Positions 39,001 through 42,000 of a DNA stretch of 54,025 nucleotides are shown one piece after another. The position numbers are program-made. Numbering within the stretch: position 1 is the stretch's first letter; each line of letters opens with the position of its first letter. This DNA is from a virus (Duplodnaviria; Heunggongvirae; Uroviricota; Caudoviricetes), in IMG/VR virus record IMGVR_UViG_2526164690_000030. The stretch is one strand, 5' to 3'.

Positions 39001-42000
39001 GAGTATTTTCAGCAGCGTTGGTAGAACGTTGACCACCGCATTGTCATTTAACACGAAATCATTCACCAGCAACCTCATTAGCGACATTCTTGATAAAGCC
39101 ATATCAGGCGGCGGGGTAAGCGGGAATTACAGTAGCGATATTGCCTACGGGAAAAATATTGTTGCTGCCGCTATGCGTATCCGTTACGCCCAGGGGTGGC
39201 AGTGGACCGTTGAAGTGGATGGTCTGAACGGCTTCGATATGTTCGTGAAGGATATCACCTACAGCAGTGGGAACATCGAGACAGAAAGCAAGGTGATCGG
39301 CAGCGTAGAATTCAGCAAGCCAACCTATGTTAGCGCCGGACCGGTCACTATGACCGTGAGGGATACCGAAGATGGCAAGATCATGGACTGGTTCAAAGAG
39401 CGTCGTTCTCGTGTAACAAATCCTGATGGAACAATAAACCTTCCTCCTGAATATCTGATGAAAATCCGTGTCTACCGGGTGACTCAGGACGGCGGAAAAG
39501 AACTGGAAGAAGAAATGCGCGTATTTCCTACGCAACTTGGGGAAATCACACACTCACGTGATCAGGTGTCAGAGTTCTTGTCATACCCAATCACTTTCCA
39601 GAAATACACATCCGCAGGCTCAGGTGTTTCTGCTTTGGTCAACGGTGCCGCTGGCATGGCTACAAGTGCGTTAAAGGGGGCTGTGAGTGGAGTGATCAAA
39701 TTCTGAATAGCTTTAATTATGTGTGCTGGAGGGTTGCTCATTTCCCGTCAGCACCCACGCCCTCAACGATAGCGGGTAGGGAAGGTAGCGCAATTTTGAG
39801 GGCATTTTTTACATCATCAATTCATCTGTAATGAAGGCATTCTTTACACATTTCAATAATATCAATCAGTTAACACAGTGAATGATAATAAAAAAGCGCA
39901 ATAAGAATGCACGATACGCACGATATTGGTTGAGGGTGATTTTTACATAACCCTTATATATCAATGCGTTATATAAAAACACAACTTGCTAATAACAAGA
40001 TACATGCAATTAAGATGTAAAAATTGCCCTCAATTGCCGATCGTTAAGGGCAAATTCTACACCTTGAGAAGGGTGTAAAAATTGCCCTTAAGATTGCTGA
40101 TAGGTAAATTTTATCCTGGTAACTTTGCCGCCTTCCGTCACCTCTGAGAAGACTATTTTCATTTTTGTATTTTTTTCAATCTCTGCTACAGCCTTCGTTA
40201 AAAAACTTCTCTTAAATTCGGCATACCGCTGATAGCTTTTTGGTAACCCATAACGCTCCCGCATCCATTCGACGCCAAGTATGGCAAAGCCGCTTCCATC
40301 ATCCTTCCTGTACTGGCATAAGGACTCATAAAGCCGCATAGAATAAGGATTTGTAAGGCGAGATACTTCGGTAAAATTCAGCCTTGTGAATCTCTTATCA
40401 AGCAGAGTAAAAAACGGCATGAGATATGGATTAAGATGAATAATGTAAGTCCCGCGCCGTGGTGAATAGGCATCCTTAATCATCCAAGGATAAGACTCAT
40501 AACTGTCTTCTGATTCGGTCGATTCATCAGGGTTATATATCGTAACTTTCTTCTCGCTAAGCCCTGAAATGGCCTTACGAATATCCTTGCTGGCTTCAGC
40601 AGAGGGCAAATTATACATCTCTGCATATTCGTTGACCGTCAACTCACAGGCACCTGAACCAAGAACGCCATCCTTAGAAGCATAGCGAAGTCTTCCCACC
40701 ACAATAAACAACAGTCGCTTTTGGTCGCGAGTCAGGTGATAAGCAGCCTCCGTGATCTCATTGGCTTGTGCCAAACTACGACTAATAGGTGTCGCTGACT
40801 CAATCAGGCTGACGGCTTTTGCTGTTAATTCCGCTCTGTTCATAACCCTGTGTGATCCTTCAAATGGTGAGGGCAATTTTTACATCACTTTGAGGGCAAT
40901 TACTACACCTTTTGAGGGCAAATCTTACACCTTTTGAGGGCAAATCTTACACCGCTCGTATTTAATTGAGGGCAAATCTTACACCAGCCTCCTCTACAGC
41001 CCGCGCCACTACTGGCTCCAGCGACGCCTAAAAAGGATCTAAAAAGGATTAAAAATGGAAAAAGGTTTATAAAAATACTCTGTGGATATGTGAGTAGCGT
41101 CACTTAAGGTGTAAAAATCACCCTCAATAATCGCTTCTCGACCGGCAAAGATCTTCATTCAATCCCCATCGCAAATCACACACTCCCTATCCTCTGGAAA
41201 ATGAACAGATACCTGCTTTTCGGAGGAATAATTGAACATTCCAAAATTCCCATTGCCTTCCCGTCCTGAGACAGAAATTCAGTTCCACGCCCCTACCGTG
41301 AAGGATGCGCTGAAATATTCTGACCTGAACCCGGCAGAAGATGAGGCAACTACTACAGAGTACCTTAACTCTATGCAGGATGGTGAAATTAACGACAGTG
41401 CTAACTGGACAGTTCAGGATCGCAGAACTGCTCTTTGGTGGATATTTGTTAATTCGCGCCCCGATGCAGTAATGACCTACTCCTATGAGTGCAGTCACTG
41501 CGGTAATACGCATCATGCAGATATTAACCTGAGCGACCTGGCCCAAACAGTAGAAATACTCACTGTACCTCCTTACGTGAAAACCAACGTACCAGTAAAT
41601 GGAGTACCAACTGACTGGATACTTAAACCATTAACCGGGAAAGGCGCGGAACTCCTTGAACGAATGCGAGCGTCACTTCCTGATATGAAAAGCCCCGAAT
41701 ACAGTGCAGGCGTGGCCCGTATGCGCATTGCAGAACTCGCTTTATGCACGGCACTGGACGACGATCCGGAAGACTTCACTCAAGCAGCTAACCGACGCTT
41801 CGACATCATTGAAAGCATGGCGCTTGAAACCGAGTTTACACCGCTTGTGGCTCGCATACAGCTTATGCAAAAAGACCTACGCCACGGCCTGAAAATGTCT
41901 ATTGAGAGAGGCACAAGCCGACTGATCCTGCCTCCGCAACATTGCAAAAACGCTAAGGAGGGTGCAGATGTGACAACCACACTGTACGTCCCCTTTCTCA

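What the first reader, a model, noticed from the sequence alone, without database searches (positions are those of the whole stretch)
39707..41231. Complete Rep_3 iteron replicon embedded between tail genes, with a possible P1-type iteron relic
A Rep_3-family initiator gene on the minus strand is flanked by five ~22-bp-phased iterons, an AT-rich tract and a DnaA-box-like site upstream, and a second iteron cluster in mixed orientation downstream. This is the architecture of a copy-controlled theta replicon. It interrupts the run of plus-strand morphogenesis genes between ORFs 38999..39706 and 41232..42053. At 39719-39733 the 15-mer ATGTGTGCTGGAGGG resembles the P1 RepA iteron core as I recall it, which could be a relic of a displaced replicon. 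This suggests replicon replacement or acquisition by insertion.
Basis: partly seen in the sequence, partly recalled or inferred. Interest (0 to 1): 0.6.

Follow-up and report, generated by a model that had tools for sequence, protein, structure and literature searches.

The report
D6 phage-plasmid replicon with relic iterons
This is the already-annotated plasmid-maintenance origin of a D6-type phage-plasmid (a mini-F RepE-like initiator with its binding repeats), and beside it sit two leftover P1-type repeats showing that an earlier P1-type origin was swapped out.

Summary
The window is a D6-like phage-plasmid, 99.4% identical to Escherichia phage D6 over 31.7 kb. The 1525-bp gap between tail genes tub and pmgB holds D6 orf42, a 251-aa Rep_3 initiator 50% identical to mini-F RepE. 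Upstream are five 22-bp-phased iterons, a GC-rich spacer, an AT-rich tract, an 8/9 DnaA box and one inverted iteron. Six more iterons lie downstream. Across diverged relatives, rep shows 74 nucleotide changes but one amino-acid change. Iterons are 90-100% conserved while spacers are about 50%, so the replicon is under selection.

The 15-mer is an exact P1 RepA iteron core (5 of 14 P1 iterons), with a degenerate inverted partner. Sibling D6-like plasmids carry a complete P1-RepA-type replicon (RepA 84% identical) in the same slot, with its first iteron at the same distance from tub. A third, probably p0111-like, replicon occupies the slot in another lineage and retains RepE-type iterons. Each swap replaces rep plus origin and leaves the old downstream iterons to decay.

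The replicon is already known (D6 annotation; pYU39_89 paper). I did not find the relic or the three-cassette slot in the papers I could read. Interest is modest.

The parts
38999..39706 (+). tub (major tail tube protein, D6 orf43); left border of the replicon slot
   Evidence: 99.6% aa identity in IMG/VR relatives
39718..39736 (+).
   Evidence: Exact 15-nt core of 5/14 P1 iterons. Scores 23.7 bits on the P1 iteron matrix. Sits at the same distance from the tub stop as the first incA-like iteron of pE2863-2.
39741..39759 (-). degenerate P1-type iteron remnant (CGTGGGTGCTGACGGGAAA), inverted relative to #1
   Evidence: 17.1 bits. It occupies the position where pEF-4 has P1-type array sequence: the MAFFT alignment places it opposite pEF-4's decayed third remnant, an alternative pairwise alignment opposite pEF-4's 25.8-bit iteron. 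The P1-type origin of the array itself comes from pEF-4's relic aligning with the incA-like array of pE2863-2. 12/19 conserved against pEF-4.
39734..41175 (.). RepE-type replicon cassette: the segment not shared with the P1-RepA-type sibling. Homology to lineage-B RepE-type cassettes starts at about 39771-39775.
   Evidence: BLAST junctions at 39733 and 41176 against L007; 39775 against L029/L030/L010
39796..40091 (.). Downstream iteron cluster, six copies in mixed orientation: 39796-39815(+), 39831-39850(+, weak), 39930-39949(+), 40014-40033(-), 40044-40063(+), 40072-40091(-). Inferred copy-control locus, analogous to F incC and P1 incA.
   Evidence: Iterons are 90-97% conserved against 49-52% for the spacers between them.
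40088..40843 (-). rep (D6 orf42), 251-aa RepE-like Rep_3 initiator with WH1 and WH2 domains
   Evidence: Pfam. PDB RepE 1REP E=1.4e-73. 50% identity to F RepE. 74 nt differences but 1 aa change against pEF-4.
40867..40985 (+). Five direct iterons (origin iterons, analogous to F incB), starting at 40867, 40890, 40912, 40934 and 40966. The rep promoter is inferred to overlap the two copies nearest rep.
   Evidence: 98-99% conserved in diverged cassettes
40986..41029 (.). GC-rich spacer between the iterons and the AT-rich tract; variable among cassettes
41030..41078 (.). AT-rich tract with three AAAAAGGAT-type repeats (41030, 41041, 41059); inferred DNA-unwinding element
   Evidence: (family D6); 64-65/66 conserved together with the DnaA box
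41081..41089 (-). DnaA-box-like site ATATCCACA (8/9)
   Evidence: Invariant in diverged cassettes. The P1-type and p0111-like cassettes have a DnaA box at the same position.
41108..41127 (-). single inverted RepE-type iteron on the far side of the AT-rich tract
   Evidence: 20/20 conserved in L033, L009 and L010
41176..41231 (+). conserved pmgB leader, shared by all three cassette types and both backbone lineages; right border of the slot
41232..42053 (+). pmgB (D6 orf41)

Best explanation
Window 39707-41231 is the plasmid-prophage replicon of a D6-like phage-plasmid. It sits in the tub-pmgB intergenic slot that the D6 group uses for its replicon.

**What the sequence shows**
- An intact rep gene under strong purifying selection. 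It encodes a two-winged-helix initiator 50% identical to mini-F RepE.
- Thirteen cognate iteron-like sites, sharing the TGAGGGCAA half-site with F ori2 iterons: the eleven intergenic copies of at least 25 bits are conserved, the weak copy at 39831-39850 is also kept, and the copy at 40600-40619 lies inside rep.
- A conserved AT-rich tract and DnaA box.

**Inferred by homology with mini-F and P1**
- Rep monomers bind the five phased iterons at 40867-40985.
- Together with host DnaA at 41081-41089 they open the AT-rich tract at 41030-41078, and theta replication starts there.
- The six downstream iterons at 39796-40091 limit copy number by titrating Rep and pairing with the origin (handcuffing).
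- rep is autoregulated through the iterons nearest the gene.

**The P1-type iterons at 39718-39759**
- They have no cognate RepA in the element.
- They are what remains of the downstream (incA-like) iteron array of a P1-RepA-type replicon that once occupied this slot.
- That replicon's rep and origin were replaced by the RepE-type cassette.

The same kind of swap happened in a second D6-like lineage. There a cassette that is probably p0111-like replaced the RepE-type rep and origin, and left the RepE-type downstream iterons behind.
For: **Identity**
- 99.5% identical to phage D6 over the locus. D6 orf42 is annotated as putative plasmid replication initiation.
- 108 PLSDB records encode this Rep at 95% identity or more. 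The complete circular records inspected (pEF-4, L010, L012; 86-94 kb) are typed with rep_cluster_1704 as their only replicon.
- PMC6799933 describes repB with iterons in pYU39_89.

**Family**
- Pfam Rep3_N and Rep3_C.
- RepE structures at E about 1e-73.
- 50% identity to F RepE.
- The F ori2 layout and iterons were read directly.

**Selection**
- rep differs from pEF-4 at 74 nt but 1 aa, and from L010 at 64 nt but 4 aa.
- Upstream iterons are 98-99% conserved, the inverted iteron 100%, the AT-rich tract plus DnaA box 97-98%, and the downstream iterons 90-97%.
- Spacers are 49-52% conserved.

**Relic**
- Exact P1 iteron core, and matrix scores in the range of true P1 iterons.
- No P1 RepA homologue in the window or in D6.
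- pE2863-2 has RepA 84% identical to P1 RepA and 12 P1-type iterons in the same slot. Its flanks are 97% and 95% identical to the window, with junctions at 39733 and 41176.
- The pEF-4 relic aligns with iteron 4, spacer, iteron 5 and iteron 6 of that array.

**Second swap**
- L015 and L010 have flanks 98-99% identical. L015 keeps the RepE-type array plus the last 14 nt of rep, followed by a different cassette.

**Independent sample**
- 21 IMG/VR loci give the same pattern: 15 RepE-type with a P1 relic; 3 P1-type with no RepE iterons; 2 lineage-B RepE-type with no relic; 1 lineage-B third type with 5 RepE-type relic iterons.
Against: - No replication test of the fragment exists in anything I could read.
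- No sigma-70 promoter for rep was found, neither at the tool's 9-of-12 threshold nor at a relaxed 8 of 12.
- No F-type inverted-repeat operator lies between the iterons and the start codon.
- The DnaA box is 8/9 and not above chance on its own.
- The NCBIfam RepE equivalog model scores 280.6 bits, below its cut-off of 342. This is a RepE relative, not an orthologue by that criterion.
- P1-type iteron #1 is better conserved than a neutral relic should be: its 15-nt core is unchanged against pEF-4, while neighbouring spacers differ at about 40-50% of positions. Some constraint, or repeated gene conversion from P1-type siblings, may act on it.
Confidence: 0.85

Rival explanations
1. The P1-type iteron pair is not a decaying relic but a maintained functional site. 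One version: it acts in trans, sequestering or handcuffing the RepA of IncY/P1-type siblings (one-way incompatibility). Another version: its hairpin stabilises or attenuates the tub transcript.
For: - The iteron #1 core is unchanged between the window and pEF-4, although rep differs at 70 synonymous codons and spacers differ at about 48% of positions.
- In both lineages iteron #1 faces an inverted partner. The pEF-4 hairpin has dG -38.9, z = -5.45.
- In L015 a nearly intact five-iteron RepE-type array is retained.
Against: - The second copy has decayed (17.1 bits; 12/19 against pEF-4), and in L033 it falls below 14 bits.
- A 49-nt segment carrying a good iteron is deleted in the window lineage.
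- The window hairpin is no stronger than shuffles (dG -18.7, z = -0.67) and has no U tract.
- Lineage-B RepE-type plasmids have no such site.
- In one plasmid an IS separates it from the replicon.
- P1 and D6 phage-plasmids are reported together in a few E. coli isolates.
- One or two iterons are few compared with P1's fourteen.
Confidence: 0.12
2. The direction of replacement is the opposite, or there was never a P1-type replicon in this lineage. On this reading the RepE-type replicon is ancestral at the slot, and the P1-type iterons arrived by partial recombination with a P1-type sibling, as a conversion tract entering from tub.
For: - Lineage-B RepE-type plasmids lack any relic, so RepE-type may be the older occupant of the slot overall.
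- tub plus iteron #1 is shared at 97% with P1-type siblings, which would allow conversion.
Against: - P1-type siblings carry no RepE-type iterons next to tub (0 hits). The one documented swap away from RepE-type (L015) did leave them.
- The relic in pEF-4 is homologous to the interior of an incA-like array (iteron 4, spacer, iterons 5 and 6), not just to its tub-proximal end.
- The junction region to the right of the relic is shared, in diverged form, by the window and pEF-4.
Confidence: 0.1
3. The RepE-type module is not what maintains the prophage as a plasmid. It would be a passenger or dead replicon, with maintenance depending on another origin such as repL/oriL.
For: No direct replication test was available. 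rep is transcribed against the direction of the surrounding late operon.
Against: - Very strong purifying selection on rep and on every iteron.
- It is the only plasmid-type initiator annotated in D6 and the only replicon typed in these plasmids.
- Siblings that lack it carry another complete replicon in exactly its place.
Confidence: 0.03
4. The match to the P1 iteron is a chance resemblance.
For: None beyond the short length of the motif.
Against: - About 1e-4 exact hits are expected for the 15-mer.
- No shuffled window reached 23.7 bits.
- A second site lies 4 nt away.
- There is positional homology with the iteron array of sibling plasmids.
Confidence: 0.005

Closest known systems
Mini-F (RepFIA) replicon: ori2 - incB iterons - repE - incC iterons
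   Same: - The initiator has the same length (251 aa), 50% identity and the same two winged-helix domains.
- Same order of elements: DnaA box, AT-rich tract, direct 22-bp-phased iterons, rep, then a second iteron cluster downstream.
- The iterons share the TGAGGGCAA half-site.
   Different: - The other iteron half differs (TTACAC against GTCACA).
- There are five origin iterons, not four, and one 8/9 DnaA box, not two tandem boxes.
- No inverted-repeat operator lies between the iterons and rep.
- The downstream copies are in mixed orientation, and there is an extra inverted iteron beyond the AT-rich tract.
- No sop partition genes lie next to it; the D6 par genes are about 10 kb away.
- NCBIfam RepE equivalog score is below its cut-off.
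- In PLSDB this Rep lineage is found at 95% identity or more in 108 records; those inspected here are D6-like. One record lies at 60-80%, and the next relatives are at about 51%.
Escherichia phage D6 orf42 region, and repB of pYU39_89 (CP011430)
   Same: Essentially the same sequence, 99.5% identical. orf42 is annotated as putative plasmid replication initiation. PMC6799933 states that repB is associated with iteron sequences.
   Different: Those records do not annotate the individual iterons, the AT-rich tract and DnaA box, or the P1-type iterons. I could not read Gilcrease and Casjens 2018 to see how far they analysed it.
P1 plasmid replicon: oriR (incC iterons) - repA - incA iterons (IncY)
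   Same: - The window's 15-mer equals the core of 5/14 P1 iterons.
- The sibling plasmid pE2863-2 has a P1-type replicon in the D6 slot: RepA 84% identical, a 5 + 7 iteron layout, a GATC-rich AT tract and a 9/9 DnaA box.
   Different: - In the window only one good iteron and one degenerate iteron remain, and there is no RepA.
- In P1 the replicon lies between parA and upfA, next to the partition genes, and tub and pmgB are adjacent.
IncY to p0111 replicon replacement in P1-like phage-plasmids (PMC9603915)
   Same: - Alternative replicons occupy one fixed site in otherwise similar phage-plasmids.
- The third cassette type in the D6 slot is about 77% identical in DNA to the 294-aa-Rep replicon of about 396 PLSDB records (Escherichia coli, Salmonella, Shigella, Klebsiella). 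One was inspected and has P1-like gene context: parB-parA-GIY-YIG-rep-upfA.
   Different: - Here the site is inside a tail-gene operon.
- Three cassette types occur, one of them RepE-like.
- The swaps leave the predecessor's control iterons behind. I did not find this described.

Membership tests
Rep_3 / RepE-type iteron replicon | Initiator with Rep3_N (WH1) and Rep3_C (WH2) domains above the Pfam gathering scores | tested here: met
   102.5 bits (cut-off 22.4) and 58.2 bits (cut-off 21.1)
Rep_3 / RepE-type iteron replicon | Tandem direct repeats (iterons) of about 22-bp period next to rep | tested here: met
   Five copies with spacing 23, 22, 22 and 32. 14 matches against 1.47 expected in the window.
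Rep_3 / RepE-type iteron replicon | AT-rich unwinding region and DnaA box beside the iterons | tested here: met
   26% GC at 41025-41074. The 8/9 DnaA box is not significant alone, but it is invariant across diverged cassettes.
Rep_3 / RepE-type iteron replicon | Second iteron cluster for copy control (incC/incA-like) | tested here: met
   Six copies at 39796-40091, conserved 90-97% against spacers at 49-52%. The control function itself is inferred.
Rep_3 / RepE-type iteron replicon | Autonomous replication dependent on Rep; Rep binds the iterons | not testable with these tools
   Indirect only: purifying selection, and it is the sole replicon typed in circular plasmids of about 90 kb.
Mini-F RepE orthologue (RepFIA) | Scores above the NCBIfam RepE equivalog cut-off | tested here: not met
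   NF010305 scores 280.6 bits against a cut-off of 342; 50% identity to F RepE. It is a RepE relative, not filed as RepFIA.
Mini-F RepE orthologue (RepFIA) | Inverted-repeat operator overlapping the rep promoter, between the iterons and rep | tested here: not met
   Only 23 nt separate iteron 1 from the ATG. No inverted repeat is there. No consensus promoter was found.
Mini-F RepE orthologue (RepFIA) | Iteron sequence as in F ori2 (TGTGACAAATTGCCCTCA) | tested here: inconclusive
   The TTGCCCTCA half is shared; the other half differs (GTGTAAGA against TGTGACAA).
P1 RepA / IncY-type replicon (for the 39718-39759 sites) | P1-type RepA gene present | tested here: not met
   tblastn of P1 RepA finds nothing in the window at E<=10, and in D6 only a 14-residue match at E=9.3.
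P1 RepA / IncY-type replicon (for the 39718-39759 sites) | 19-bp iterons matching the P1 set | tested here: met
   23.7 bits (within the true range of 18.4-31.1) and 17.1 bits.
P1 RepA / IncY-type replicon (for the 39718-39759 sites) | Iteron arrays on both sides of repA, with a GATC-rich AT tract and DnaA box | tested here: not met
   Only two sites remain. The full arrangement is present in the sibling pE2863-2. Hence a relic, not a replicon.
D6-like phage-plasmids (P1 group 2) | Collinear high identity with phage D6, with P1-type morphogenesis genes | tested here: met
   99.4% over 31.7 kb and 97% over a further 7 kb; gene order as in D6.

The most novel reading that the evidence does not exclude
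The tub-pmgB gap of D6-like phage-plasmids is a dedicated replicon-exchange slot. Each swap replaces rep and origin but keeps the predecessor's control iterons. Those retained iterons would be used rather than merely left over. They would bind the old initiator in trans and so destabilise sibling phage-plasmids that still rely on the old replicon, giving one-way incompatibility as a competitive weapon. The unexpectedly well-preserved P1-type iteron #1, and the intact RepE-type array in the p0111-like variant, would be signs of this.
Probability: 0.12. Interest if true: 0.65.

Novelty: already known. Interest (0 to 1): 0.3.

Why it matters
The replicon itself is ordinary. It is the annotated maintenance origin of a common family of E. 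coli, Salmonella and Shigella phage-plasmids.

Three things are useful beyond the annotation.

1. There is now a base-level map of the origin: iterons, AT-rich tract, DnaA box and control array. Conservation data show which parts are under selection.
2. D6-like elements carry at least three interchangeable replicons at one fixed site inside a tail operon: RepE-like, P1-RepA-like and a third that is probably p0111-like. Typing schemes that look for one rep gene will therefore miss or misclassify some of them.
3. The swaps leave datable iteron fossils. These give the direction of the swaps, and they raise a testable question: do retained iterons cause incompatibility between sibling phage-plasmids?

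Tried and rejected
- **p0111 guess.** I first assumed the D6 replicon was PlasmidFinder type p0111. The literature shows that p0111 is an alternative replicon of P1-like elements and that D6 repB is not in the typing databases.
- **Gilcrease and Casjens 2018.** The paper could not be read by DOI or PMC id, so I cannot say whether it already describes the iterons or the slot variants.
- **Terminator reading of the P1-type inverted pair.** Rejected. RNA dG is -18.7, z is -0.67, and there is no U tract.
- **Late promoter inside the slot.** A matrix from ten annotated P1 late promoters has no hit of 12 bits or more in 39707-41231. Either D6 late promoters differ or pmgB is reached by read-through.
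- **Rfam.** No RNA family matches 39500-41400 at E<=1.
- **Natural mini-replicon.** NZ_CP027382.1 (36 kb) is a linear, incomplete record and is not informative.
- **pSa1423-160k.** It matches at 90.9% with many disrupted iterons and no called genes. This looks like a low-quality assembly, so I did not use it.
- **Genome-contig scan with PmgB.** It returned one mis-binned contig only.
- **Consensus promoter scan.** No rep promoter was found at 9 of 12, nor at 8 of 12 in my own scan. The only candidate I see by eye is a TGT-AAAAAT extended -10 inside the iteron nearest rep. It is weak and untested.
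Full report
**What the window is.** The region 39600-41300 is 99.5% identical to Escherichia phage D6. The window as a whole is collinear with D6: 99.4% over 31.7 kb and about 97% over a further 7 kb. D6 is a P1-related temperate phage whose prophage is a circular plasmid. In the D6 record the gene at window 40088-40843 (minus strand) is orf42, annotated 'pfam01051; putative plasmid replication initiation'. 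It lies between orf43 (tub, major tail tube) and orf41 (pmgB). A megablast against PLSDB finds 123 plasmid records, 97 of them covering at least 80% of the query, from Escherichia coli, Salmonella and Shigella. By protein, 108 records encode this Rep at 95% identity or more. [quoted passage not shown]

**Checking the observation.**
- The Rep protein has Rep3_N and Rep3_C domains (3.4e-29 and 9.8e-16).
- Five direct repeats start at 40867, 40890, 40912, 40934 and 40966, with spacing 23, 22, 22 and 32.
- The iteron pattern with up to three mismatches occurs 14 times in the 54-kb window, and 13 of these lie within 39797-41126. Shuffles give 1.47 and none reaches 14.
- Beyond the five repeats come a GC-rich spacer, a tract of about 26% GC at 41030-41078 with three AAAAAGGAT-type repeats, and an 8/9 DnaA box at 41081-41089.
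- The DnaA box alone is not above chance, but it is invariant in diverged relatives.
- Downstream of rep lie six more iterons in mixed orientation at 39796-40091. The last one overlaps the stop codon.
- In P1, tub and pmgB are separated by 14 nt within one late operon. The replicon does therefore interrupt a run of morphogenesis genes, compared with P1.

**What family it belongs to.** The initiator matches the solved structures of mini-F RepE at E about 1e-73. It is 50% identical to F RepE over 228 residues and has the same length of 251 aa. I read the F ori2 region directly. Its order is two DnaA boxes, an AT-rich tract, four iterons (TGTGACAAATTGCCCTCA), an inverted-repeat operator, repE, and five inverted iterons (incC). 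The D6 cassette has the same order, and its iterons share the TTGCCCTCA half-site. The other half differs, and no operator-type inverted repeat lies in the 23 nt between the first iterons and the ATG. The NCBIfam RepE equivalog model scores 280.6 bits against a cut-off of 342. In PLSDB there is a gap between the D6-type Rep (95% or more) and ordinary RepE (about 51%), with a single record in between. It is thus a distinct, RepE-like lineage; the PLSDB records I inspected that carry it are all D6-like phage-plasmids.

**Is it functional?** There is no replication experiment I could find, but the comparative signal is strong. I aligned the window with three diverged RepE-type cassettes: L033 at 92%, pEF-4 of E. 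fergusonii at 82.5%, and L010 at 85%.
- rep differs from pEF-4 at 74 nucleotides in 71 codons, with one amino-acid change. It differs from L010 at 64 nucleotides with four changes.
- In the non-coding parts, the five origin iterons are 98-99% conserved.
- The inverted iteron is 100% conserved.
- The AT-rich tract plus DnaA box is 97-98% conserved.
- The downstream iterons are 90-97% conserved.
- The spacers between the downstream iterons are only 49-52% conserved in pEF-4 and L010.

This is the pattern expected if Rep and all of its sites are in use. The plasmids are typed with this replicon only, and D6 has no other plasmid-type initiator. The mechanism is inferred from mini-F and P1, not shown: Rep monomers on phased iterons, DnaA-assisted opening of the AT-rich tract, copy control by titration and handcuffing through the downstream array, and autoregulation through the iterons nearest rep.

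**The P1-type 15-mer.** I extracted the 14 annotated RepA iterons from the P1 record. ATGTGTGCTGGAGGG is the exact core of five of them. A weight matrix from the 14 scores 23.7 bits at 39718-39736. True iterons score 18.4-31.1, and the best of 200 shuffled windows scores 21.8. It scores 17.1 bits at 39741-39759 on the other strand, 4 nt away. Neither the window nor D6 encodes a P1 RepA homologue.

**Where the P1-type iterons come from.** A distant BLAST showed that some D6-like plasmids match the window only up to position 39733. One of them is pE2863-2 (NZ_AP018804.1). It has the same tub and pmgB, 97% and 95% identical in the flanks, but between them lies a complete P1-type replicon:
- RepA of 286 aa, 84% identical to P1 RepA;
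- seven incA-like iterons on the tub side and five incC-like iterons on the other side;
- a GATC-rich AT tract and a 9/9 DnaA box.

Its first iteron lies at the same distance from the tub stop codon as the window's 15-mer. Homology between the two plasmids ends at 39733 and resumes at 41176. The more diverged RepE-type plasmid pEF-4 carries a better relic: two near-consensus P1-type iterons of 28.4 and 25.8 bits, plus a decayed third. This relic aligns with iteron 4, the spacer, iteron 5 and iteron 6 of the pE2863-2 array. In the window lineage a 49-nt piece of that relic is deleted. In L033 only one P1-type site still reaches the 14-bit scan threshold.

**A second, independent swap.** A second backbone lineage has tub only about 83% identical in protein. 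It contains RepE-type plasmids with no P1-type relic (L010, L029, L030, L053, L057). It also contains plasmids with a third replicon (NZ_CP085065.1 and CP042620.1, MOB-suite rep_cluster_2164). That Rep has 294 aa and is 41% identical to P1 RepA. NZ_CP085065.1 and L010 are 98-99% identical in the flanks. NZ_CP085065.1 retains the RepE-type downstream iteron array, with an internal deletion, and even the last 14 nt of the RepE-type rep gene. Only then does the new cassette, with its own iterons, begin. The new cassette is about 77% identical in DNA to the replicon of about 396 PLSDB records from E. coli, Salmonella, Shigella and Klebsiella. The one record I inspected is a P1-like plasmid with the gene context parB-parA-GIY-YIG-rep-upfA. 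That fits the published description of the p0111 replicon. I did not run PlasmidFinder, so this name is an inference.

**The general picture.** The tub-pmgB gap is the replicon slot of the D6 group. It holds at least three alternative cassettes. In all of them rep is on the minus strand, the origin is on the pmgB side and the control iterons are on the tub side. A swap replaces rep plus origin and brings the new control iterons. The old control iterons stay next to tub, where they decay by deletion and mutation. An independent sample of 21 IMG/VR loci retrieved through PmgB gives the same pattern:
- 15 RepE-type with one or two P1-type relic iterons;
- 3 P1-type with twelve P1-type iterons and no RepE-type ones;
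- 2 lineage-B RepE-type without a relic;
- 1 lineage-B third type with five RepE-type relic iterons.

P1-type siblings carry no RepE-type relic. In the D6 backbone lineage the direction P1-type to RepE-type is therefore favoured.

**What remains unexplained.** The 15-nt core of P1-type iteron #1 is unchanged between the window and pEF-4. Yet these cassettes differ at about half of their spacer positions and at 70 synonymous codons. A neutral fossil from one old swap should have decayed more, as its partner did. The candidates are selection or repeated gene conversion from P1-type siblings that share tub and iteron #1. Selection could act on a hairpin after tub, or on trans-incompatibility against P1-type siblings. 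Several points argue against a strong incompatibility role:
- the site is absent from lineage B;
- an IS200/IS605 insertion splits off the distal iteron and the relic in one complete plasmid;
- P1 and D6 phage-plasmids have been reported together in a few isolates.

The window hairpin is not a terminator.

**Novelty and verdict.** The replicon is already known and annotated. Replicase exchange among phage-plasmids is a recognised phenomenon (PMC10879196; PMC9603915). I did not find the base-level anatomy, the P1-type relic, the three-cassette slot or the rule that swaps leave the old control iterons in the literature I could read. I could not read the D6 genome paper. Interest is modest.

Noticed in passing
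window 42068-45850: The sit gene (tail injection transglycosylase / tape measure, one 1260-aa CDS in D6) carries a 1-nt indel relative to D6. It reads as two ORFs (42068-43354 and 43447-45849). This is either a sequencing error or a defective prophage that persists as a plasmid.
   Followed up: partly
window 41176-41231 (L007 6501-6556; L015 about 3505-3557): A leader of about 56 nt upstream of pmgB (AATCACACACTCCCTATCCTC...GGAGGAATA-TTG) is conserved across all three cassette types and both backbone lineages. It has no counterpart in P1, where tub and pmgB are 14 nt apart. It could be a promoter or translation signal for pmgB, or the right-hand recombination site of the swaps.
   Followed up: partly
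window 39707-41231, and hits at 14434(-), 32457(+), 43168(+), 47599(+): A matrix built from ten annotated P1 late promoters finds no site in the replicon slot. Late transcription of pmgB, sit and the baseplate genes would then have to read through the origin, antisense to rep, unless D6 uses an unrecognised promoter.
   Followed up: partly
L008 (NZ_CP122828.1) 1391-3000: In this plasmid 1.6 kb carrying an icd-like gene sits between tub and the P1-type iteron. The last 37 nt of tub are replaced, and the junction falls 3 nt before the relic iteron. pmgB is also disrupted, by an IS91 element.
   Followed up: no
L012 (NZ_CP095127.1) 770-2500: An IS200/IS605 element is inserted just after the distal downstream iteron (window about 39813-39822). 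It separates that iteron and the P1-type relic from the rest of the replicon in a complete 94-kb plasmid. These distal parts are therefore probably dispensable.
   Followed up: partly
window 40600-40619: An iteron-like sequence lies inside the rep coding region (CAGAGGGCAAATTATACATC, 18.5 bits; 23.0 bits in pEF-4). Its conservation cannot be separated from coding constraint.
   Followed up: no
L035 (NZ_CP030285.1): MOB-suite, as shown by PLSDB, labels this P1-like plasmid with the presumed p0111-type replicon as IncHI1B / MOBH. This looks like a typing artefact.
   Followed up: no
window 1-8870 and 16270-18221: These stretches have no BLAST piece longer than 400 bases to phage D6 (only pieces over 400 bases were listed). 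The element is a D6 relative with different accessory content, not D6 itself.
   Followed up: no
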